In this document: positions 11,723 through 41,851 of the stretch, piece by piece
Layout: the number at the start of each line of letters is the position of its first letter
Position numbering within the stretch: position 1 is the stretch's first letter
Sequence record: NC_023693.1
Source of the DNA: Escherichia phage phi92
Strand: one strand, 5' to 3'
DNA length: 64,000 nt
The notes under the pieces: generated by a model
Databases searched by the model: none
Told to the model about the DNA's origin: nothing
The model's input: only the letters and a program-made list of their open reading frames with translations
Position numbers and translations under genes: made by a program

Positions 11723-14700
11723 TCAGTGACAAGTTGACCATGAACTACCAACATCGTAACCAGCAGTGAGAGGTACATTAAGATTGTAATACTCACCAGC
11801 TTTATTAACAGCGATAGATGCTAATTCTCCAGCACGACTGTAGGCTGTAAACCAACCACCTTTCGGAGATTCATGTACGTTAGCCCAAATCTTGCCAGTA
11901 CGTTTCTCTTCCTCTTCTTTCCAGGCATTAACTTTATCCAAACATTCTTTATCAATTTTCTTTTGTTCCTCTGGATCATCAACTTGAGTCCAACCTAAAG
12001 ATTCTTTAGAGAACCATTTAAAATGCACCAGATCACGAGTTACTTCAAGCTGTGCTTCATCGTGATATGCAATCATTTGTTGAACGAATGACTTATTTTT
12101 CCAGTCATCAACAAAAAAGTCAACAGCTAATCCTTCTTCTTCGATAAGATCGTCGTAGATAACCATTGCTCTTTTTGCACAAATAACACCACCACTCTGG
12201 AACAGAGAGTTAAGTATTGCGTGTGCAGATCGTGTAGGTACTTTCCTACCATCAATACCAAGAATGTATTTCTTACCTGTTTTAACCCAAAAATCATGCA
12301 GACGTTCTTTAAGAAGCGCAAGAGGTTTTGCAGCTTCCCAGAAAGCATCGTATACAAGCTGTCCTGTATACATATCACTACCTATAGTTTTTGCTACTTT
12401 TGCAGCTTGAGCACCATAAGTAATACCATACTTAACAGATTTAGCAGGGCTTCGTTCAAACTTACGACCAATAGTGTCAGAAATACGTCGAGCCATCATT
12501 GTATGAACATCATTAGGTTTTTCCAATAATAGAGCATTACAATATTCGTGTGGTTCCTGCTCGTACCGCCAACAATTCCCTGTAATCGTGATGCAGTCTT
12601 TCTGACGCATAACCCATGTACCGAGTTCTGTTTGTGGACACCAAACATCTTCTACACCCCATTCTTCAATAGTCAGACTTTGAACAGGGATGTGAGAGCG
12701 GTTAGCCAACGTTGCCACTTTTACTTTCTGGTCTTTCGTATTGAAGGCTACAGAAATATTACCCCCATGAACCAGGTATGAGGCAGTTAAGGCTGCTTCA
12801 AAAAGTTCTCCTGGGTTCTGCGCCCAGCGCCAAACAGGTTTTTGTTTATGTTTGTGCCAGTAACCATCCGCAATCAAAAAACCTTCCAAGAAAGCCACAC
12901 GCTCGGCATGAGACATATTAACTACACGTTCTACCCACGGAACATCCCATTTACCTTGTTGAACAGAAGTTAAACTATTTACTTGATCTTGTTCCATGTT
13001 AAATGGAGCATTACAAATAATGTTATCTCCTGTGCAAAGCTCGGCAGTTGTTCTGACTTTAGGCACATAAGTATTCCCTGTACTACGAGTATTAACATAC
13101 CAACGGTGATCTGCTGTTGCACGATAAGTATGGGATTTTCCTTTAATCTCAAACGTCTTACTATTTTTATAGAAGACCTTACCTTTTACTTTAGTCCATT
13201 CTTTAAGTCCTGTTTCTGGGTTATATCCTAAGATTTCATCCCCTTCTTGTAGATCGTGATAACCAACCCAACCTTTACGGGTTAGTGCTTGTGCATCCAT
13301 AGGTACACAGTAGTGTGATTCTATTTTTGCCTCAAGAGAATCAAAGTCATAACCAATTTGGAAGTATTTTGGAACTTCTACACCAAATAAGTTACGCATT
13401 TCATATCCGTACAGAGATGTTACACGTGGGATATTTGCTACTAACCTATGTTTCATACGAGACGTAGCTGCATCACACGTTGCAGCAGGAGTTGGTATAC
13501 GACCATCAGCCCTTACTGCTGCCAGATAACCTTTATCGTAATCCTCTTCATCTTCTTCCCAATCAGCACCACCTCCTAGAATAGAGTTCCTACGGTGTTT
13601 ATACGTAAGATACTGCACAATCTGCGTAGCATAAGGAAACTTTTCACCTAGTGCTTCCAAGTTAGGACAAATATCTTTCTCTTGCCCTTTTGTAAAGGAA
13701 GGGTTAGTAAGCACTTTAACACCACGACCTTTAGCTTTAGCAATACGATCTCTTAGTTTCCATTCCAAAGTTTCTGGTGTGCACTCCAGATGATCACATC
13801 TGTCCTGGCAGAAGTTAGATGCCAATGTTTGATCAACATAGTCACGAATAGCTTTCTCCATTTGTGCTTCATCTTTCTTAATCTTAGTGCCAGATTTAAG
13901 AGTGATATCTTTATCTTTATATTCAGATGGACTCCAACCTAAACCAACTAACCAGTTTTTAATATGTGTCGTGTCGTCTAAAGTAGCAGGTACTGTAGGA
14001 TCACAAATAGGTTCTTCTGCTGGAATAGGTAGTTTAAACTCTTTACCTAAAGCAAATAACCACCAACCATCTTCTTTTTGTACAAGTTCACCAGAATGTT
14101 TCTCTGCAAACTTTATCATGTTACTTGAAGGTTCACCATTCTTTTTAAACTGTAGTTTAGGTGGAATGAATGATTTCAAATAACCTTTAGTAGCAGGTTT
14201 AGGAGGTAGCACAGGTTCTGCCTCTAAACGACATGCTTCCATTCGAGCATCCAGATCACGAATATTATCTTCTGCTTGTTTCATATTGAAAGCAAAGCCA
14301 CGGTGCTCTTGACGTGTAATAATATCCGCTACACGTTGTTCTAAGTTAAATGGTTCAGACCACTTATTATAATCACCCCACTCTTCCATCAAATAACGGA
14401 ACACTGCGGTGTTAGCTTTGTTATCGTAAATACAGTAATACAGCATATCTGCTGCAAATGTTTTAAATCTTTCAGTTTCAGGGATATTTTTTCTAAAATC
14501 AATTTTAACATCCCCTCCAGCTTTCTTAGATAACTCTGCCAGACTATGACCACCGAAGCGATCAGGGTTTAGTGTCTTACTTAAGATCATAGTATCACAA
14601 ATTTCAATGTTACTATTACCCCAAGTATTGTACTTAATACTGTAGTTGAGTTTAAAAAATAATTTAATTGCCAGTAAGTCAAAGTTAATGATGTTATGTC

Positions 14701-15037
14701 CAACTACTTTGGTAATTTTATAGTTTGAATTACCTTTAAATTTACCTGTTCCATTTACAAAATCAGGAAAATCTTTAAGAGGGAAATGGGTATATTCTAA
14801 ATGCTCATATTCCTCCAGTCGGTATTCATACTTTCCGTCAGTCTCAACATACGGACGACCATCGAAAAGATATTTATCACCATCATGGAAAGCAATAATC
14901 TCTCCAGTATCATGACTTTCGCACACAATACAGTGCATTGCAAAACTATCTTTTAAACGATATGGACTTGCCAAGTAATCTACACTTTCGTCATTAAGCA
15001 AGTTGTTACTTTCAATGTCGAAAGTAAAAGCTCCCAT
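11723..15037 (-). CDS. family A DNA polymerase with 3'-5' exonuclease domain, interrupted by an intein
   Basis: Exo I FDIES; motif A DFDSLEAKI; motif B RSPAKSVKYGITYG; motif C YHDEAQLEV; in-frame insertion between motifs A and B. Confidence 0.8.
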   Translation of the reverse strand: MGAFTFDIESNNLLNDESVDYLASPYRLKDSFAMHCIVCESHDTGEIIAFHDGDKYLFDGRPYVETDGKYEYRLEEYEHLEYTHFPLKDFPDFVNGTGKFKGNSNYKITKVVGHNIINFDLLAIKLFFKLNYSIKYNTWGNSNIEICDTMILSKTLNPDRFGGHSLAELSKKAGGDVKIDFRKNIPETERFKTFAADMLYYCIYDNKANTAVFRYLMEEWGDYNKWSEPFNLEQRVADIITRQEHRGFAFNMKQAEDNIRDLDARMEACRLEAEPVLPPKPATKGYLKSFIPPKLQFKKNGEPSSNMIKFAEKHSGELVQKEDGWWLFALGKEFKLPIPAEEPICDPTVPATLDDTTHIKNWLVGLGWSPSEYKDKDITLKSGTKIKKDEAQMEKAIRDYVDQTLASNFCQDRCDHLECTPETLEWKLRDRIAKAKGRGVKVLTNPSFTKGQEKDICPNLEALGEKFPYATQIVQYLTYKHRRNSILGGGADWEEDEEDYDKGYLAAVRADGRIPTPAATCDAATSRMKHRLVANIPRVTSLYGYEMRNLFGVEVPKYFQIGYDFDSLEAKIESHYCVPMDAQALTRKGWVGYHDLQEGDEILGYNPETGLKEWTKVKGKVFYKNSKTFEIKGKSHTYRATADHRWYVNTRSTGNTYVPKVRTTAELCTGDNIICNAPFNMEQDQVNSLTSVQQGKWDVPWVERVVNMSHAERVAFLEGFLIADGYWHKHKQKPVWRWAQNPGELFEAALTASYLVHGGNISVAFNTKDQKVKVATLANRSHIPVQSLTIEEWGVEDVWCPQTELGTWVMRQKDCITITGNCWRYEQEPHEYCNALLLEKPNDVHTMMARRISDTIGRKFERSPAKSVKYGITYGAQAAKVAKTIGSDMYTGQLVYDAFWEAAKPLALLKERLHDFWVKTGKKYILGIDGRKVPTRSAHAILNSLFQSGGVICAKRAMVIYDDLIEEEGLAVDFFVDDWKNKSFVQQMIAYHDEAQLEVTRDLVHFKWFSKESLGWTQVDDPEEQKKIDKECLDKVNAWKEEEEKRTGKIWANVHESPKGGWFTAYSRAGELASIAVNKAGEYYNLNVPLTAGYDVGSSWSTCH
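12575..13309 (-). other. intein inside the DNA polymerase gene (boundaries approximate)
   Basis: Starts CVPMDAQALTRKGW after motif A, contains TADH block and LAGLIDADG-like FLEGFLIADGYW, ends ...ITITGN before CWRY; extein then resumes with NDVHT as in T7 polymerase GDIHT. Confidence 0.5.
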
Positions 15038-25260: not shown

Positions 25261-25493
25261 TACACATTCTCCTCTTTTACCAATTCCATCGTTGAATTGT
25301 CAAAACCATCTTTAGAAGAATAGGTATAGACAGAACGTAGTTCTCGCAGGACAGTGAATACATTAGGATCATCTAACCAAGCATCCTGGAGGAGAACATA
25401 ACGATCTTCATTGTCATACTGAACAGCAATCATAGAACCAGACAGTTTGTAAATTTTAATATTCATAATATATTTCTCCTTAAAGTAGACCAC
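25260..25493 (-). CDS. hypothetical protein
   Basis: 77 aa ORF. Confidence 0.35.
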   Translation of the reverse strand: MVYFKEKYIMNIKIYKLSGSMIAVQYDNEDRYVLLQDAWLDDPNVFTVLRELRSVYTYSSKDGFDNSTMELVKEENV

Positions 25494-26583
25494 GTTTAAC
25501 AGTTTGAATCATACCATCTTCAAGAGATTGCACTTCTTGAATGTAATCAATACGGGCAGCACGGGCTTCAGTGTTGATTCGGTTAGTTTCTTCCAACATT
25601 TTAACTAAGTTTTCTTGATCACGACGTAATGTTTCAATATCCAATACTTGACGATTAGCAAGTTGTGTAGCTTCAATTTGGTTTTGTGCAGCCAGATCAC
25701 TACCCATTGCAATAGCAGCATTAAATTCATTCAGTACATTGTTCTGTGTATCGGCTGCTTTCTTCTGGCGTAGACTTTCAATATACATAGAAAAGTTTGC
25801 AGAGTAAGCAGGGATAACATTATTCACAATATTACGGGCTGATCGCATCAAACTTGCAGATACTTTCTGCATACTTTGTACACGTGGCCCCATCTGAACA
25901 CACAGTAAGCGTAAGGCTTTCAGGTCTGCAATACGAATTTCAAGCAGATCCATAGTATCACGAGTACGCTGACGCTCTTCTACGTCATTTTCAGGCAGTG
26001 TATTAAGGCGAATTTCTTCTTTTTCATAAGTAGCTGTTAGAAGCTCTATATCTCTGTTTAAGCTAAGAGCATATTTTGCAATAGCCTCTTCTAAACGTTG
26101 CAGATATCGTAAAGAATCTTCTTCTTTTTTCAAGTCTGTTTGGAGTGTCTTTACCAAACCTTCAATACGGTTATTAATGGTGTCAAATTCTCCAAACAAA
26201 TCTTCTTTCATACCTAAAACTTTTTTAACTAGTTTACCTAAACCTTTAGATTGTTTAATAGAGTTAGGATCAAGTTGCTTTGCTTGCTTAATAAGTGCAG
26301 TTAAACGTTCACTCATTTCATCTCCCTGAGATGAACGCTGGTGTTTAAGCACTTCAGCATTAAGGTTACGAAGAGTAAGTCCTGCATCAGCACCAACCTG
26401 TTCAATCTCTTCACGCGACATTGGAGGCAGCATTTGTACAGGTCGTGCAACAGCAGGGGCATATACAGGGCTTGCATCCATAGCACTTGGAGCAAACAAA
26501 GACTTACTTTTTTCTGTTGTTGCCGTGAATACACTCATTTCAGACGGTTTGCTTTTTACGGCACTGATAAAAGGACTGGACAT
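25480..26583 (-). CDS. TelA-like (toxic anion resistance family) protein
   Basis: 367 aa, long helical coiled-coil-like sequence resembling the TelA/KlaA family. Confidence 0.55.
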   Translation of the reverse strand: MSSPFISAVKSKPSEMSVFTATTEKSKSLFAPSAMDASPVYAPAVARPVQMLPPMSREEIEQVGADAGLTLRNLNAEVLKHQRSSQGDEMSERLTALIKQAKQLDPNSIKQSKGLGKLVKKVLGMKEDLFGEFDTINNRIEGLVKTLQTDLKKEEDSLRYLQRLEEAIAKYALSLNRDIELLTATYEKEEIRLNTLPENDVEERQRTRDTMDLLEIRIADLKALRLLCVQMGPRVQSMQKVSASLMRSARNIVNNVIPAYSANFSMYIESLRQKKAADTQNNVLNEFNAAIAMGSDLAAQNQIEATQLANRQVLDIETLRRDQENLVKMLEETNRINTEARAARIDYIQEVQSLEDGMIQTVKRGLL

Positions 26584-36352: not shown

Positions 36353-37303
36353 TTAGTCAAGGTTTTTGGTAATACGTGTACAACCGTCAGAAGTCAAACC
36401 GTCAAATTGAGTTTCCCAAGTGCCATGAATATTTCGGAACAATGTTGTTACACCTTTTGGTTCATTAATAATGATTGCCATAACAAGTTTAGGATCGATA
36501 ACAGACATAATCTTTTCCTCAATACCCTCTGTAATAACATTATTGCGCACAATATTAATTGCATCTTCTTGTACAGTAAGAACACTTACGTTCTTAAGAG
36601 TATATACCTGCTGTGTAGTGTAAATGATACGAACATAACTTACAGAACGAGTAGGCACAGGTTTACGCGGTCGGCGAAAACGTGGTTTTGGTGAAGATTC
36701 AGTCTTACTTTCATTTTTTGAATAATACTCCTCAAACAGTTTAGTAAATGTTTTTACATCAACTACAAACCGATCTTTCCGATATGGAGAATTCTTATGT
36801 GCACCATTAATACCACTGTTTTCATCGAAGAAAGTAATGTTTTCTTCAGTTGAATACATTAGATAATGATCTGCATTTTTCCAATGTGGTTGTGGACAAC
36901 GAGGATTACAAACGGAAAGCAGATAACTAATATCTTCTTCCGTGGCATCAGTATCCAGGAAACACGTATTATGCACAGTCAGTTGTACTTTTTCAGCCAT
37001 ATCTTTTTCTTTATCCTCTTTAGCAAGATATTCAGTACGAATAATCTCCAGAAAATTTTCAGGTGTTACTTCCATAAATGTATATTCAGGATGAAGTTCC
37101 ATATATTCAAATCCACAACCATCTAATTGCTGTAGAAAGTTAGGGTAGAAGAACAAATCATTAACACTGTGAATCAGATCATTGATTTCTGCTTCAGTTG
37201 TGTAACCAAAACTCTTGTGAATTGCTTCGTTAAGAATATGCAGGATACCCATCTCTTCTGCTGCTTTTTTAACTTCCAGTTTATTAGCGTAAAATGCAAT
37301 CAT
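36353..37303 (-). CDS. hypothetical protein
   Basis: 316 aa ORF. Confidence 0.4.
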   Translation of the reverse strand: MIAFYANKLEVKKAAEEMGILHILNEAIHKSFGYTTEAEINDLIHSVNDLFFYPNFLQQLDGCGFEYMELHPEYTFMEVTPENFLEIIRTEYLAKEDKEKDMAEKVQLTVHNTCFLDTDATEEDISYLLSVCNPRCPQPHWKNADHYLMYSTEENITFFDENSGINGAHKNSPYRKDRFVVDVKTFTKLFEEYYSKNESKTESSPKPRFRRPRKPVPTRSVSYVRIIYTTQQVYTLKNVSVLTVQEDAINIVRNNVITEGIEEKIMSVIDPKLVMAIIINEPKGVTTLFRNIHGTWETQFDGLTSDGCTRITKNLD

Positions 37304-37320
37304 TATGTTCTCCTTCTAAA

Positions 37321-37755
37321 TTAGTTTAAAATTTCTTTTGCAATGGTAGAAGCAAGTTTTCCATCATATTGGTTCGGATACTCTGCTTTAAGGTGTTTCA
37401 TCATATCTGGCATTTTCTTGCCTGTCAAGGCAAATTCTTCGGCAATAGCTCGAAGATCATCTTCAGATAGCATTTCTGGTAAATATTTTTCCAGGGTGGT
37501 GATATCACGCATAGCTCGCTCACATTTGCTAATGGAGGCATTAACTTTCTTAAGCGAGTCTAGTTCCTCTTTAGCGTGTGCAATACCAATCTTAACAATG
37601 TTAATCATAATATCATCTTCTGATTTATTCAGATTTGCCTTTTGAGTACGAGCAAGGTCAAACTCACCAATAATATTAGTTAACAAAGCAAAAGCACCCT
37701 TATCGGTTGTACGTGCTAAGATACGATCTGCTTTCATTTGTGTCACAATAGACAT
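37321..37755 (-). CDS. GatB/YqeY-domain protein
   Basis: C-terminal ...LKAEYPNQYDGKLASTIAKEIL typical of the GatB/YqeY helical domain. Confidence 0.45.
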   Translation of the reverse strand: MSIVTQMKADRILARTTDKGAFALLTNIIGEFDLARTQKANLNKSEDDIMINIVKIGIAHAKEELDSLKKVNASISKCERAMRDITTLEKYLPEMLSEDDLRAIAEEFALTGKKMPDMMKHLKAEYPNQYDGKLASTIAKEILN

Positions 37756-37767
37756 TCTATTCTCCTC

Positions 37768-38340
37768 TTATTTGCTAATGATTTGAATCTTATTTACAAC
37801 ACGGTTTATTGCCAGTGAAGCCCTAGGCTCCGCAATACCTGTTGCATAGATATAAGGATGACCTTTTGGAGACTCCCTCATACCGAATGAACCTAATTCT
37901 AAACCATATTCATCCTCTACGTCAACCCCAATATTAGTGGGTACTAAATATGTTTTAACTCCATAATAAGTAGAGAAGAAACAGCGCATAGAGTTAGCAT
38001 ACTCTTCAATTGTAGCATCAGGGTAGAACTCAATCAACTCCAATTTCAAGAAAATATTAAAATGGGTATCATCTAAATTTTCTTCTGTGCGGTAACATGG
38101 TGTTAGTGCCATATACGGATTACCTGCTGCAAATTCAAAACCATCCTTCTCCATTTGCAGGAAAGATTGTTCTGCACTAGCTACATAGTATTTACCGTTA
38201 GGATGCCCTAATGGGCGATCCTCTTTATTTTCTGGTAGTGTATACGCCAGTATATCAGCATCCACGAGATATGGAACTTCTAACATTTGTGCAAATCGAC
38301 CATAGTAATCAATAGCTTGAGCTATTACTGCAACATTCAT
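37768..38340 (-). CDS. hypothetical protein
   Basis: 190 aa ORF. Confidence 0.4.
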   Translation of the reverse strand: MNVAVIAQAIDYYGRFAQMLEVPYLVDADILAYTLPENKEDRPLGHPNGKYYVASAEQSFLQMEKDGFEFAAGNPYMALTPCYRTEENLDDTHFNIFLKLELIEFYPDATIEEYANSMRCFFSTYYGVKTYLVPTNIGVDVEDEYGLELGSFGMRESPKGHPYIYATGIAEPRASLAINRVVNKIQIISK

Positions 38341-38588
38341 GATCGACCTCCATTGCGGAATGCACGTTTAGTAATGTTTGACATAGTGATCAAATCTTGA
38401 AGCGTCATACCAGGAAAATGCTGTTCAAGAACACCTTCAACAGCGCCTACAATATCTGATAACTCAATAAGTTGCATCAGCTTGCAATCTTGATCAATAG
38501 CATCTTGAAGTTCATAAAGCTCTTCTTGAATCTTAGCAATAGAACCGTATTTCTCTTTGCTAATCTCCTTCAAATGATACCCTGCCAC
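38337..38588 (-). CDS. MazG-like nucleotide pyrophosphohydrolase (all-alpha NTP-PPase) candidate
   Basis: 83 aa; acidic helical motifs IQEELYELQDA and ELSDIVGAVEGVLE. Confidence 0.35.
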   Translation of the reverse strand: MAGYHLKEISKEKYGSIAKIQEELYELQDAIDQDCKLMQLIELSDIVGAVEGVLEQHFPGMTLQDLITMSNITKRAFRNGGRS

Positions 38589-38598
38589 TTTAACCCCC

Positions 38599-41373
38599 TT
38601 AGTTTACCAGTTTATTTATATCGGGTAAAAGATTTATTTCACCTAAAAAATCACCTTCACCTTCCTCTAACCAACTCTCATATGCTTGTGCATGATTATA
38701 GTTACCATCAAAAGAATCTGCAACAAATTTTTCTACAGTTTTTCGAGATGTGCCAGCGCCAAATACACCAAGTTTAATACCATTGATCGGTAAAGTGGTG
38801 CTTGTTGGTACTTTCTCTGTTGCAACACGGTTGATATCTATAATCTCCTGTACGGTTGTGTTCCATTGTAAGCATTTAACACAACGGGTATGCGCTACAT
38901 ACAGTAGGTTTCGCTCTGCCTCTTCCAGTCCTACCCATTCACCAGTCTTTTTATCATAGTTGGAAGGAAAATCATTAGCAACAATAACCTGATCCCACTC
39001 CAAACCTTTAGACTTGTGTGCTGTAGTCAGTGTGACTTTTGCTGTAGGAGAATTTCTATGCGTTCTAAGTGTATGTGCTATAGTGTTCGCCTTACCAGAA
39101 ACTACGATGTTTAACAAGCGTTTAGCATCTGGATCAGCCTCTGCACACTCAACAAATTCATTCCAATCTGCGTAAGGTAATACAGTTTCATGTTTTACTT
39201 TCTCAATATCTCCTCTCCGAAGAGCATTAACACTATCTACCATAGAGATAAAATCCCTGGTATCTACGTTAATAATAATTTCTTCCCCATTTGCAATACG
39301 ATCCATTGCCTCCATAAGCAAGGTTAAATTCTTGCGAAAGATGATAGTGTAAGGTTTTGTATAGTCTACAACATCTGATTTGTAGCTACCTACTACAGTA
39401 TCAAAGCCTTTACCAACCAAAGGATGACGCAAAGGTTCTTTATCGCTTAAAATCATATTGGCAATGTTTGCCACTTTGGGGCCAAAACGGAAGCAAGCAG
39501 TTAATGGAAGCTCTGCCCCATACTTAGCTGTTTCAATCATCATATTAGAGCTACCTCTAAATTGATAAATGCAGTTGTGGCTAAGAATTTCATTGCCAAA
39601 GAAGTTAGCAGTATCCTCTACTTCAATATCATAATAGATACCCTCACTATCTACAATGTCCACAATCTCTTCTGCCGTTACAGTATCACCATCTTTTACC
39701 AACACAGACATGCCTTTAAACAAACCCGCTGCCGGAATTAAGTTATATTTGGCAGTGTCTACAGAGGACATGCATTCTTTTAAAGATGCAAACGGAACTA
39801 TTTCAAGGATCTTTTGTGCAAAACTCAATGCTTCACGATAAGAATTGAAATACTTACGTACACGGTAACGACCTTCCAATTTAGCAACACTTACGCTTAC
39901 ACCTGCTTTAATGAGTGAAGCATAGATCGGCATTTCACTTTCTGTCCACTCAAAACTGACTTGTGTTCCTTTACAACCTTGTGCTCGCAAAGTCACTGTT
40001 AACATTTTTCTTTCATCTACTGCACAATTGATGCTGTGCCAATGTGGATAAGCAAAATGATAGTCTTTATCCTCTAAAAGTTTAAAACCATTCTGTCCGA
40101 ATTGTTCAAAGATGTTATTGATCCTTTCTTGATTAATGCCGCGTGAACTTGCTTCAAATACACAAGTAGGAATGCCATATTGTAAACTGTATGCCATTTC
40201 TTTTTCCATAGCAGCTTCGCGATTTTCAACAATGTCCAACACCCATAATTTCTGTGCTTTTTCAGAACGTGTACGTTGCCCCAGTTTAGAAAAACCTTCT
40301 TTATCATCGAATTTGTTAGTGATCCCTACTCGGAAACCTAAATCTTTCCTCCACATTAGGTATACCACCATCTGGTCATCTTTCAGAACATAGGATGAAG
40401 CCCAAATACGATGGTTATGTGTCATATCTAAAGTTTTACCTGTAGCAGTAATAATATTCCTACCTTTTGTACGTGTAGATAAAGTTTTATTTGTTACTTT
40501 TCTAAATGTAACTTTACCATTAGAATAAGACTCTACCTTATCACCGATTTGCAGGTCTTTCATTGTAACCTGACCATTCTCGGTGTTAAGTACCGTGTTT
40601 TCCGACACACATTGGAATTCATCGCCCACTACCACAATTTGTTTTGCAGATTTAGCATTTCGCAGAATAGACAAGAATGCAGGGTTAACATCCTGGAATT
40701 CATCACCAAAAATAATATCATAACCAAGATCAGCACCAGACAATTCAAACAATTTTACATAGGTGTCATGCGTCATCAAAGTATCTGTATTAGGATCAAT
40801 GCGCTCTCGCCACAATTGTTTTGCATACTTAACTACTTCTGTAATTAGTTTGTGTTCGTTAATACCTTTTCTTTTAATATCTGCAAGATGTACACTAGGA
40901 AAATGTTTACGGCTGATAAAAGGATCATCCGAAAATTCAAACTTACCTACGGTTTGCTTGATCATTAAACCGATCATAGCACGAGTTAAAAGTGTTTTCC
41001 CTCGTTTATCAATAAGATTATTAATCTTAAATTTCTTTGCTATCTCGCTACCTGTACCTGCAACGTTAACATACTGTCCTTCTGGTCGTGACAGTTTTGC
41101 ACGTAAACGATGATCCAGGAATTGATAGCAAATAGAATGCAATGTACGGCATTCTACATTTAGTGGCATCTTACGTCGTGCTTCTTCTGCCATGCTTTTA
41201 TTGAAAGCTAAGTAAAGAATGCGATCTTCTGTACTGTTAGCCAGCAAATAAAGTGTTGACGTTTTGCCTGATCCAGATTTAGCTTGGATAGTTAAAAAGC
41301 GATGGTCTGGAAAAGCCTCCTTAATAGCTGTTTGCTCTTCTGTTGGAGTGAAGCTCAAATCTTTCTTAGCCAT
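38599..41373 (-). CDS. UvrD/Rep-like SF1 DNA helicase interrupted by an intein
   Basis: Walker A AKSGSGKT, motif II GDEFQDVN, motif III split as VVGDEFQ / CIYQFRGSS; start set to ATG (MAKKDL) with RBS agagagg. Confidence 0.75.
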   Translation of the reverse strand: MAKKDLSFTPTEEQTAIKEAFPDHRFLTIQAKSGSGKTSTLYLLANSTEDRILYLAFNKSMAEEARRKMPLNVECRTLHSICYQFLDHRLRAKLSRPEGQYVNVAGTGSEIAKKFKINNLIDKRGKTLLTRAMIGLMIKQTVGKFEFSDDPFISRKHFPSVHLADIKRKGINEHKLITEVVKYAKQLWRERIDPNTDTLMTHDTYVKLFELSGADLGYDIIFGDEFQDVNPAFLSILRNAKSAKQIVVVGDEFQCVSENTVLNTENGQVTMKDLQIGDKVESYSNGKVTFRKVTNKTLSTRTKGRNIITATGKTLDMTHNHRIWASSYVLKDDQMVVYLMWRKDLGFRVGITNKFDDKEGFSKLGQRTRSEKAQKLWVLDIVENREAAMEKEMAYSLQYGIPTCVFEASSRGINQERINNIFEQFGQNGFKLLEDKDYHFAYPHWHSINCAVDERKMLTVTLRAQGCKGTQVSFEWTESEMPIYASLIKAGVSVSVAKLEGRYRVRKYFNSYREALSFAQKILEIVPFASLKECMSSVDTAKYNLIPAAGLFKGMSVLVKDGDTVTAEEIVDIVDSEGIYYDIEVEDTANFFGNEILSHNCIYQFRGSSNMMIETAKYGAELPLTACFRFGPKVANIANMILSDKEPLRHPLVGKGFDTVVGSYKSDVVDYTKPYTIIFRKNLTLLMEAMDRIANGEEIIINVDTRDFISMVDSVNALRRGDIEKVKHETVLPYADWNEFVECAEADPDAKRLLNIVVSGKANTIAHTLRTHRNSPTAKVTLTTAHKSKGLEWDQVIVANDFPSNYDKKTGEWVGLEEAERNLLYVAHTRCVKCLQWNTTVQEIIDINRVATEKVPTSTTLPINGIKLGVFGAGTSRKTVEKFVADSFDGNYNHAQAYESWLEEGEGDFLGEINLLPDINKLVN
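39574..40611 (-). other. intein (about 346 aa) inside helicase motif III
   Basis: Begins CVSENTVLNTENGQVT right after GDEFQ, ends ...NEILSHN directly before CIYQFRG. Confidence 0.6.
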
Positions 41374-41374
41374 T

Positions 41375-41851
41375 TCAACCTCTCTTAATTTGTTTAACAA
41401 GCATAGGAACAAAATCTCGTTTTAAAATTTGTTCAATAATATGATCAGGTAGCTGTTGGAAATTATAATTAAAAGCTACTGTCTCACCTTTAGGTGTTTC
41501 TACCCGCACATATAACATGTTACGAAGTTTATCCACTTGTGCTGTATATTCTAAACCATGTAATTGATGTATTGCAAACATCAAATCGTCAGTTTCAGTT
41601 TGGAATCTATCACTTCCTTGCATCAAGGACAAGGTAAAAGGTAGATTTTCCCTAAGAGCCACCTTCTTAGGCACTAGTGAAGGGAAATACTCCCCAATAA
41701 CTTCCTGTGTAAGCTGAATACACTCTTTTTCAAGCTGGTTTTGTTCCTTGAGTTCACAAACACTTTTTTGTAAAGTGTTAACCTCTTTTTGCAAAGCTGC
41801 TAGTTGAGCACTTAACTTTCTTTTTTGATTACGACCAAAACGTTTAGACAT
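41375..41851 (-). CDS. hypothetical protein
   Basis: 158 aa ORF, N-terminal coiled coil. Confidence 0.4.
   Translation of the reverse strand: MSKRFGRNQKRKLSAQLAALQKEVNTLQKSVCELKEQNQLEKECIQLTQEVIGEYFPSLVPKKVALRENLPFTLSLMQGSDRFQTETDDLMFAIHQLHGLEYTAQVDKLRNMLYVRVETPKGETVAFNYNFQQLPDHIIEQILKRDFVPMLVKQIKRG

What the first reader, a model, noticed from the sequence alone, without database searches (positions are those of the whole stretch)
39574..40611. Large intein inserted exactly in helicase motif III of the UvrD-like helicase
The motif III sequence is split as VVGDEFQ / CIYQFRGSS by a 346-residue insert that begins CVSENTVLNT and ends NEILSHN, the canonical intein termini. The insert is large enough to carry a homing endonuclease domain. 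A second intein in the same replication block (see the polymerase) indicates active invasion by selfish elements.
Basis: partly seen in the sequence, partly recalled or inferred. Interest (0 to 1): 0.5.

Follow-up and report, generated by a model that had tools for sequence, protein, structure and literature searches.

The report
Mobile intein splitting a phage helicase
A 346-residue self-splicing protein insert (intein) really does sit inside motif III of this E. coli phage's UvrD-like helicase; sister phages already carry that annotation, but its central domain belongs to no described endonuclease family, and the element has recently jumped between phage genera.

Summary

Three things go beyond that annotation.

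2. A Phapecoctavirus carries the same intein at 99.6% identity, plus about 273 nt of co-converted C-extein, in an otherwise about 75% identical gene. That is a fresh homing footprint.

3. The intein is under strong purifying selection (dN/dS about 0.05).

Splicing and cleavage were not tested.

The parts
38599..41373 (-). UvrD/Rep-like SF1 helicase precursor gene (924 aa plus stop). The ORF listing extends to a TTG at 41412, but relatives are annotated from this ATG (MAKKDL).
   Evidence: Pfam UvrD-helicase 45 bits and UvrD_C 42 bits, both above gathering score. PHROG 1967 DNA helicase E 3e-163. Start and length come from annotated relatives.
40612..41373 (-). N-extein, 254 aa. It contains Walker A and motif II (DEFQD at 40690..40704) and ends with the first half of motif III, GDEFQ (40612..40626).
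   Evidence: Read from the sequence. The intein-less alleles are colinear.
39574..40611 (-). Intein, 346 aa. Residues present: Cys1; block B T64-x-x-H67; block F D328; H345-N346.
   Evidence: Absent precisely from about 98% identical alleles.
40396..40611 (-). N-terminal part of the Hint splicing domain (intein residues 1-72).
40042..40380 (-). Central subdomain A (residues 78-190), the candidate nuclease core. It has a beta-beta-alpha-beta-alpha core followed by helices, and carries invariant Y84, M86, G92, R94, G96, R113, W123, A134 and E138.
39754..40041 (-). Central subdomain B (residues 191-286), an alpha/beta module of unknown function, possibly DNA binding. It is the most variable part of the intein, and in Klebsiella phage KP2025 it looks mosaic.
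   Evidence: Models. dN/dS 0.1-0.4. In KP2025, dS 0.81 here against 0.14-0.19 in the N-terminal parts.
39574..39753 (-). C-terminal part of the Hint splicing domain (residues 287-346), containing blocks F and G: YDIEVEDTANFFGNEILSHN.
   Evidence: NCBIfam intein_Cterm. Model. PDB sequence alignments to BIL, DnaX and gp41-1 inteins.
38602..39573 (-). C-extein, 324 aa. It starts with the Cys+1 nucleophile and the second half of motif III (CIYQFRGS, 39550..39573) and contains UvrD_C with motifs V and VI.
   Evidence: Intein-less alleles have Ser at this position.
39523..40638 (-). The intein plus the extein patch that travels with it in Justusliebigvirus, from 27 nt upstream to 50 nt downstream. 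All 21 fixed differences between 7 intein-plus and 6 intein-minus alleles fall in these flanks.
39301..39573 (-). C-extein stretch of about 273 nt that is 100% identical to Phapecoctavirus DIJ07P2, while the rest of that phage's gene is about 75% identical. This is the co-conversion tract of a recent homing event.

Best explanation
The insert is a splicing-competent class-1 intein that is also an active mobile element.

Splicing (inferred from residues and fold). The helicase is translated as a 924-aa precursor. Cys1 attacks the preceding peptide bond. The N-extein is passed to Cys+1. Asn346 cyclises and releases the intein. This rejoins GDEFQ to CIYQFRGS, giving a 578-aa helicase with an intact motif III.

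Homing (inferred from population footprints). The central 210 residues, folded between the two halves of the Hint domain, act as a homing endonuclease. In a mixed infection it cuts the intein-less helicase allele at or near the motif III coding sequence. Repair from the intein-bearing genome then copies in the intein together with a stretch of flanking extein.

Endonuclease type (hypothesis, about 0.5). The endonuclease is not LAGLIDADG or HNH. It belongs to a large undescribed family found almost only in inteins of UvrD-like helicases. Its core is most likely a diverged GIY-YIG-type nuclease, with Tyr84, Arg94, Arg113 and Glu138 as candidate catalytic residues. Subdomain B would be a DNA-binding module.
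For: Intein identity:
- Profile hits.
- C1, T64/H67, D328, H345, N346 and Cys+1 are all present. C1, H67, H345 and N346 are invariant, and D328 nearly so, across 38 family members.
- Precise 1038-nt presence/absence between alleles about 98% identical.

Splicing works:
- Exteins of intein-plus phages stay under purifying selection, dN/dS 0.02-0.07.
- The intein-plus phages are viable isolates.

Mobility:
- The intein is present in 36 phage records. About 20 relatives with near-identical helicase genes lack it.
- DIJ07P2 (Phapecoctavirus) has the intein at 1034/1038 identity, with a 100% identical 273-nt 3' tract and a 5' junction within 4 nt. The rest of its gene matches intein-less Phapecoctavirus nieznany at 95-100% and the window at about 75%.
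- All 21 fixed plus/minus extein differences lie within -27..+50 nt of the site.
- Intein dS is about twice extein dS for the same phage pairs.

Endonuclease function:
- All 36 copies are full length.
- dN/dS is 0.04-0.08 overall, and subdomain A shows 13 synonymous against 0 nonsynonymous changes.
- The central domain folds confidently on its own, pLDDT 91.
- 1224 clusters at E<=1e-3. Among 136 domain copies with a readable C-terminal junction, taken from the 150 best-scoring proteins, 104 sit at motif III and the rest at other sites in the same proteins. All five of the proteins scanned with Pfam are UvrD-like helicases.
- Free-standing derivatives lie right next to uninterrupted helicase genes.

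GIY-YIG link:
- The strand and helix order matches.
- hhalign to UvrC profiles is in register with the GIY, YIG and Glu positions. With a 3-sequence profile the score is 21.1, P 0.0016, and 0 of 100 column shuffles reach it.
Against: - No splicing or cleavage experiment exists.
- Pfam Intein_splicing (33.6 bits) and NCBIfam intein_Nterm (17.6-20.5 bits) fall just below their curated cut-offs.
- The nuclease assignment is weak. No Pfam, PHROG, NCBIfam or PDB sequence hit was found for any of 38 central domains.
- With a larger, Firmicute-biased UvrC profile the hhalign score fell to 15.4 (P 0.027; 6 of 100 shuffles reach it).
- The second Tyr of the YIG motif is an Arg here.
- The intein-minus Justusliebigvirus alleles differ from the intein-plus flanks at 21 of 78 positions. 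It is not shown that they are cleavable targets rather than resistant variants.
Confidence: 0.8

Rival explanations
1. The intein is real and mobile, but its central domain is a nuclease of a new fold or family unrelated to GIY-YIG. On this reading the weak GIY-YIG resemblances are convergent small alpha/beta topology.
For: - No profile hit to any GIY-YIG family in Pfam for 38 of 38 members.
- The hhalign result is unstable: P 0.0016 against P 0.027.
Against: - The invariant residue set (Tyr on strand 1, Arg-x-Gly on strand 2, an Arg, and a Glu on the helix after strand 3) and the beta-beta-alpha-beta-alpha order fit GIY-YIG. They fit none of the other homing endonuclease catalytic motifs: no LAGLIDADG, HNH, His-Cys, PD-(D/E)xK or EDxHD signature is conserved.
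- Several independent GIY-YIG structures recur in two different fold searches.
Confidence: 0.3
2. The intein splices, but its central domain is no longer, or never was, an endonuclease. On this reading the patchy distribution comes from ordinary homologous recombination between co-infecting phages, or from a nuclease encoded elsewhere.
For: - No nuclease family is detected by sequence.
- No cleavage data exist.
- Phages of this subfamily recombine readily.
Against: - Purifying selection on the central domain is as strong as on the helicase itself: 13 synonymous and 0 nonsynonymous changes in subdomain A. That is not expected for a passenger.
- All 36 copies are full length.
- The segment transferred into DIJ07P2 is only the intein plus 273 nt on one side, with one junction exactly at the insertion site. 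No neighbouring gene came with it.
- The domain persists as a free-standing gene beside uninterrupted helicase genes after losing the splicing residues.
Confidence: 0.12
3. The insert is not a splicing element but a lineage-specific insertion domain that stays in the mature helicase.
For: Splicing has not been observed. Two intein HMMs score just under their curated cut-offs.
Against: - The insertion lies inside motif III, a core helicase motif (established SF1 helicase knowledge).
- Exact 346-codon absence from alleles about 98% identical.
- At least 100 homologous inteins at the same junction, all with Cys, Ser or Thr at +1.
Confidence: 0.02

Closest known systems
The annotated 'intein-containing UvrD / Rep family helicase precursor' of Escherichia phages PaulScherrer (MZ501100), JohannJBalmer (MZ501084) and vB_EcoM_ZYD (PQ110661)
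   Same: It is the same element at the same site, 96-98% identical in DNA.
   Different: Nothing of substance differs. Those records give only the label 'intein'. Their mat_peptide is 1041 nt and wrongly includes the +1 Cys codon. No endonuclease type, mobility evidence or publication text was found: the BASEL paper mentions inteins only in its methods, and a 2024 paper states that no coliphage inteins have been reported.
Canonical bifunctional class-1 inteins with a LAGLIDADG endonuclease (PI-SceI, PI-PfuI, PI-TliVMA)
   Different: Only the roughly 130 Hint residues align. There is no LAGLIDADG motif or fold in the central domain.
GIY-YIG homing endonucleases of phage group I introns and free-standing genes (I-TevI, I-BmoI, Seg proteins) and the T5orf172/MUG113-like branch
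   Same: A small beta-beta-alpha-beta-alpha core with Tyr, Arg and Glu, followed by a separate putative DNA-binding module. It occurs in a phage setting, and the co-conversion is asymmetric. There is weak fold and profile similarity.
   Different: The domain is embedded in-frame in an intein rather than an intron or a free-standing gene. The literature held here says GIY-YIG enzymes are not found in inteins (PMC1564403). A 2025 survey lists only LAGLIDADG, HNH, VSR-like and EndoVII-like intein endonucleases. There is no significant HMM match, and the YIG Tyr is replaced by Arg.
Yeast HO endonuclease (an intein-derived free-standing endonuclease; from general knowledge)
   Same: Relatives P0044 and P0066 keep the Hint-plus-central-domain architecture but lack Cys1 and the terminal His-Asn. 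They are separate genes.
   Different: This applies to metagenomic relatives, not to the window's element, which keeps all its splicing residues.

Membership tests
Intein (class 1, Hint superfamily) | In-frame insertion that is absent, codon-exact, from orthologous alleles | tested here: met
   The helicase is 924 aa with the insert and 578 aa without it, in alleles about 98% identical. The difference is exactly 346 codons.
Intein (class 1, Hint superfamily) | Catalytic residues: Cys/Ser1, block B TxxH, block F Asp, penultimate His, terminal Asn, and Cys/Ser/Thr at +1 | tested here: met
   C1, T64/H67, D328, H345, N346 and Cys+1 are present. Among 79 family members, 75 have Cys1, and +1 is Ser in 60, Cys in 18 and Thr in 1.
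Intein (class 1, Hint superfamily) | Hint fold | tested here: met
Intein (class 1, Hint superfamily) | Curated profile thresholds | tested here: inconclusive
   Pfam Hint 29.7 bits equals its cut-off, and NCBIfam intein_Cterm 20-23 bits exceeds 15.6. Pfam Intein_splicing 33.6 bits is below 35.8, and intein_Nterm 17.6-20.5 bits is below 24.5.
Intein (class 1, Hint superfamily) | Protein splicing demonstrated | not testable with these tools
   Only indirect support: the exteins are under purifying selection in viable intein-plus phages.
UvrD/Rep/PcrA-like SF1 helicase (host protein) | UvrD-helicase and UvrD_C domains, plus motifs I, II and III | tested here: met
   Pfam PF00580 45.2 bits and PF13361 42.3 bits, both above cut-off. 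GSGKT, DEFQD and GDEFQ|CIYQFRGS are read from the sequence.
LAGLIDADG or HNH intein endonuclease | LAGLIDADG or HNH motif, profile or fold in the central domain | tested here: not met
   No Pfam hit at E<=10 for 38 of 38 central domains. LAGLIDADG inteins align only over the Hint residues. No such hit appears for the domain-only model.
GIY-YIG nuclease superfamily | Three-stranded sheet with beta-beta-alpha-beta-alpha order | tested here: met
   Secondary-structure order of the models: strand 81-88, strand 92-98, helix 111-116, strand 121-128, helix 131-145. Sheet geometry was not inspected.
GIY-YIG nuclease superfamily | GIY and YIG motifs 10-11 residues apart, then a conserved Arg and Glu | tested here: inconclusive
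   VY84LM and FR94VG96 lie 12 residues apart. R113 and E138 are invariant. The YIG Tyr is an Arg, and equivalence of the residues is not shown.
GIY-YIG nuclease superfamily | Significant profile or fold match | tested here: inconclusive
Homing (endonuclease-driven) mobile element | Presence/absence polymorphism at one site, co-conversion of flanks, and element phylogeny discordant with the host gene | tested here: met
Homing (endonuclease-driven) mobile element | Site-specific cleavage of the empty allele | not testable with these tools
   Requires an in vitro cleavage assay or phage crosses.

The most novel reading that the evidence does not exclude
The central domain would be the first in-frame GIY-YIG-type homing endonuclease of inteins, or failing that a seventh, new homing-endonuclease family. 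It founds a large lineage (at least 1224 protein clusters, no Pfam model) that specialises on UvrD-like helicases. That lineage has colonised at least five sites in them (motifs II, III and V and two others). It has repeatedly given rise to free-standing, HO-like endonuclease genes parked beside helicase genes whose motif III lacks the +1 nucleophile.
Probability: 0.4. Interest if true: 0.7.

Novelty: new variant of a known kind. Interest (0 to 1): 0.5.

Why it matters
As first stated, the finding is ordinary and already in GenBank: phages carry inteins in replication genes. The endonuclease module is what matters.

- Intein endonucleases are almost all LAGLIDADG, with a few HNH. Reviews and surveys held here say GIY-YIG enzymes do not occur in inteins.
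- A confidently folded, strongly conserved, widely distributed central domain with no family assignment is a well-defined target for biochemistry. It could add a new scaffold for site-specific nucleases.
- This phage group is a ready natural experiment. Intein-plus and intein-minus phages with near-identical helicase genes are available, all growing on E. coli K-12 (the BASEL phages PaulScherrer and JohannJBalmer against EmilieFrey).
- One cross-genus invasion has been caught with its co-conversion tract intact. Homing rate, target range and fitness cost can therefore be measured directly.

Tried and rejected
- Word-indexed protein search with the intein returned only two hits. The exhaustive profile search was needed to see the family.
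- Pfam, NCBIfam, PHROGs and PDB sequence searches of the central domain gave nothing consistent, whether run on the single sequence, on a profile, or on all 38 members. The single weak PHROG hits (25003, 11923) were not reproduced across members and were dropped.
- Fold search of the whole model reports only the Hint domain, so a domain-only model was made.
- The afdb50 library was not available. BFVD was used instead.
- hhalign against single GIY-YIG sequences was not significant. The I-TevI sequence I recalled was afterwards matched to PDB 1mk0/1ln0, and the T. maritima UvrC sequence to 1ycz. The recalled E. coli UvrC only aligned as a homologue of PDB UvrC domains, and the human SLX1 sequence was not checked.
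- A 3-sequence UvrC profile gave P 0.0016. A database search to deepen the UvrC profile returned only close Firmicute relatives and lowered the score. I therefore do not claim GIY-YIG membership.
- Antisense or out-of-frame endonuclease ORFs, as reported for some actinophage inteins, were considered. Only ORFs of 61-85 aa overlap the intein in other frames, and the in-frame domain is the conserved one, so this was rejected.
- Cluster look-up for organism names gave unnamed metagenomic proteins only.
Full report
**1. What is there**

The window is a Justusliebigvirus (Stephanstirmvirinae), a myovirus of E. coli with a genome of about 147 kb. The helicase region is 99.0% identical to OZ035770 and 98-99% identical to many isolates.

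On the minus strand an ORF runs 38599..41412. Annotated relatives start at the ATG at 41373, which gives 924 aa. Pfam finds UvrD-helicase, AAA_19 and UvrD_C above threshold, and PHROG 1967 'DNA helicase' matches at E 3e-163.

Window 39574..40611 (minus strand) translates to 346 residues, CVSENTVLNT...GNEILSHN. These lie between VVVGDEFQ and CIYQFRGSS. Reading the bases confirms that codon TGT (Cys1) occupies 40609..40611, AAC (Asn346) occupies 39574..39576, and TGC (Cys+1) occupies 39571..39573.

DEFQD, 27 codons upstream, is motif II. GDxxQ|(S/C)IYxFRG is SF1A motif III. That assignment rests on established helicase motif knowledge.

**2. It is an intein**

- The insert matches Pfam Intein_splicing (E 4e-8, 33.6 bits, just under the 35.8 cut-off), Hint (29.7 bits, at cut-off) and Hint_2.
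- NCBIfam intein_Cterm scores above its cut-off. intein_Nterm scores below its cut-off.
- An AlphaFold2 model built on 38 family members has pLDDT 93.7 and pTM 0.90.
- All class-1 residues are in place: C1, T64-x-x-H67 (block B), D328 (block F), H345-N346, and Cys+1.

The decisive comparative evidence is that Justusliebigvirus genomes with about 98% identical helicase genes lack exactly 1038 nt. Examples are alia MN850632, EmilieFrey, inny, J-01, EC_OE_11 and PATM. Their helicase is 578 aa and reads VVVGDEYQ-SIYQFRGSQ.

**3. It is already annotated**

GenBank records of PaulScherrer and JohannJBalmer (BASEL collection) and of vB_EcoM_ZYD call the gene 'intein-containing UvrD / Rep family helicase precursor' and carry an 'intein' mat_peptide. 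That feature is 1041 nt and includes the +1 Cys codon, which the intein-less alleles show belongs to the extein.

In the searchable literature I found no description of the element. The BASEL paper mentions inteins in one methods sentence. A 2024 paper on coliphages says that no inteins have been reported in coliphages. 'UvrD intein' as a phrase finds nothing. UvrD is listed among bacterial intein hosts, with 16 cases, in Novikova et al..

**4. The central domain**

Between the Hint halves (residues 1-72 and 287-346) the model shows two subdomains.

- Subdomain A, residues 78-190: strand, strand, helix, strand, helix, then further helices.
- Subdomain B, residues 191-286: alpha/beta.

The domain is not LAGLIDADG or HNH. 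Pfam finds nothing at E<=10 for any of 38 members. PHROGs gives nothing consistent. A profile search of PDB sequences finds nothing. LAGLIDADG-bearing inteins align to the model only over their Hint residues.

It is nevertheless a real and large family. A three-sequence profile searched against 1.84 billion representative proteins finds 1224 at E<=1e-3, 508 at E<=1e-10 and 94 at E<=1e-30. Nearly all are embedded in proteins of 800-2500 aa.

Among 136 domain copies with a recognisable ...HN|C/S/T junction, 104 sit at ...GDxxQ|C...HN|(S/C)IYxFRGA, which is the same motif III site. The others sit at motif II (VDE|C...HN|CQDLN), at motif V (HN|STKGAEW) and at two further sites. All five proteins I scanned are UvrD-like helicases with Hint flanks, and some carry three such inteins.

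Seventy-nine complete motif III inteins have a median length of 342 aa.

Invariant central residues across 38 members are Y84, M86, G92, R94, G96, R113, W123, A134 and E138.

**5. Is it a GIY-YIG nuclease?**

For:
- The strand and helix order matches.
- The motif pattern 'VYLM...FRVG(I/V)T...R...E' resembles GIY-(10-11)-YIG...R...E, with Arg in place of the second Tyr. From memory, the T5orf172/MUG113 branch has Lys or Arg at this position; this was not checked here.
- GIY-YIG homing endonucleases recur in the BFVD Foldseek list at E 0.02-0.08.
- hhalign of subdomain A against a three-sequence UvrC profile aligns 66 columns in register: VYLM with GVYxM, RVG with YVG, and EAL..E with EALxLE. 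The score is 21.1 and P is 0.0016. Column-shuffled controls give 10.0 +/- 2.1, and 0 of 100 reach the observed score.

Against:
- No GIY-YIG HMM matches.
- With a 123-sequence but narrow UvrC profile the score falls to 15.4 (P 0.027), and 6 of 100 shuffles reach it.

I therefore treat 'GIY-YIG-like' as the leading hypothesis, at about 0.5, and not as established membership.

None of the other homing-endonuclease catalytic signatures is conserved in the alignment. The literature held here states that GIY-YIG enzymes have not been found in inteins (PMC1564403). A 2025 survey of intein endonuclease types lists LAGLIDADG, HNH, VSR-like and EndoVII-like only.

**6. Evidence that the element is mobile now**

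(a) *Distribution.* The intein DNA is in 36 phage records, all with the full 1038 nt, at 89.7-99.6% identity. About 20 records with 95-99% identical helicase genes lack it, as do 64 more distant Phapecoctavirus-like records. Phage alia (MN850632) lacks it, while genomes named Justusliebigvirus alia (OZ035770, OZ035799) have it.

(b) *Cross-genus transfer.* Phapecoctavirus DIJ07P2 carries the intein at 1034/1038 identity to the window. Its N-extein is 74% identical to the window. Its gene otherwise matches intein-less Phapecoctavirus nieznany at 95-100%. The first approximately 273 nt of its C-extein are 100% identical to the window. The 5' junction lies within 4 nt of the insertion site. This is a one-sided co-conversion tract.

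(c) *Fixed flank differences.* Among 7 intein-plus and 6 intein-minus Justusliebigvirus alleles there are 21 fixed extein differences, and all lie between -27 and +50 nt of the site. The intein-plus flank (F..Q|C...SSNMMIETAK) is also shared by KP2025 and DIJ07P2.

(d) *Selection.* Intein dN/dS is 0.04-0.08. Subdomain A shows 13 synonymous and 0 nonsynonymous differences against JohannJBalmer, SD2 and KKP_3264. The exteins give 0.02-0.07. Intein dS is about twice extein dS for the same phage pairs.

Purifying selection on an endonuclease that the host does not need is expected only if homing continues.

**7. Mechanism**

Shown:
- Anatomy, fold and catalytic residues.
- Exact empty sites.
- Co-conversion footprints.
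- Selection.

Inferred:
- The precursor splices by the class-1 pathway to restore motif III.
- The released or precursor-borne central domain cuts the empty allele near the motif III codons during mixed infection.
- Recombinational repair copies in the intein with more 3' than 5' flank.

Unknown:
- The cleavage position.
- Whether the present intein-minus Justusliebigvirus alleles are sensitive or resistant.
- The role of subdomain B. It is the most variable part and looks exchanged in KP2025 (dS 0.81 against 0.14-0.19 in the N-terminal parts).

**8.

The polymerase gene (11723..15037, minus strand) carries a 245-codon insert, about 12575..13309. It reads CVPMD...TITGN followed by Cys and contains a LIADGY motif. 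PaulScherrer annotates it as an intein.

Relatives 98-99% identical lack exactly 735 nt there. Phages muut and arall have the helicase intein but not the polymerase insert, so the two elements assort independently.

No Pfam or NCBIfam Hint model detects it. I did not go further with this insert.

**9. Verdict**

As an intein in a phage helicase it is an already annotated, ordinary kind of element. The added value is an undescribed, widespread endonuclease-position domain, possibly GIY-YIG-like, together with unusually clean evidence of ongoing homing. Interest is 0.5.

Noticed in passing
window 12575..13309 (-), inside the PolA ORF 11723..15037: A 245-codon insert (CVPMD...TITGN followed by Cys, with a LIADGY motif) is annotated as an intein in phage PaulScherrer. 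Relatives 98-99% identical lack it by exactly 735 nt. It assorts independently of the helicase intein: muut and arall have one but not the other. No Pfam or NCBIfam Hint profile detects it, and it ends in Gly-Asn rather than His-Asn.
   Followed up: partly
L017 3340..4392 and L018 1943..2929 (metagenomic contigs), with upstream genes L017 1877..3328 and L018 425..1894: Free-standing relatives of the intein (P0044, P0066 and, by sequence, P0055, P0061, P0064, P0068) start with Met. They lack Cys1 and the terminal His-Asn. P0044 and P0066 lie immediately downstream of uninterrupted UvrD-like helicase genes whose motif III reads GDxxQAIY, with Ala at +1 and so no splicing nucleophile. They look like intein-derived stand-alone endonuclease genes, comparable to yeast HO.
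   Followed up: partly
P0003 (2433 aa), P0004, P0006-P0010, P0067 (metagenomic proteins): Giant UvrD-like helicases carry two or three inteins of this same family at different motifs (II, III, V and others). The lineage has therefore switched sites repeatedly within one host protein family. A BFVD hit suggests the domain also occurs in a phage adenine methyltransferase.
   Followed up: partly
L007 (Klebsiella phage KP2025), intein residues 191-286: Subdomain B of the KP2025 intein is far more diverged from the window (dS 0.81, dN 0.21) than the N-terminal Hint part and subdomain A (dS 0.14-0.19). This suggests modular exchange of the putative DNA-binding module.
   Followed up: no
L001 3973..5013 and L006 1101..2141 (GenBank mat_peptide 'intein'): The deposited intein features of PaulScherrer and JohannJBalmer are 1041 nt and include the +1 Cys codon. 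That codon belongs to the C-extein, as the 578-aa intein-less alleles show.
   Followed up: yes
Records MG065639, MG065645, MG065656, MG065689 ('Campylobacter phage' A150, A145, C3, A110a): These UNVERIFIED records, labelled as Campylobacter jejuni phages, are 97-98% identical to E. coli Justusliebigvirus across the helicase and intein, so the host label looks doubtful. A110a also has a different, longer insert in the polymerase gene: its match spans 3549 nt against 3315 nt in the window.
   Followed up: no
window 36353..38588 (-), downstream of the helicase: The small genes next to the helicase are annotated in relatives as putative tRNA-synthetase-like proteins (aspartyl/glutamyl, histidyl or seryl, depending on the record). 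A TelA-like gene lies at 25480..26583. None of these moved with the intein.
   Followed up: no
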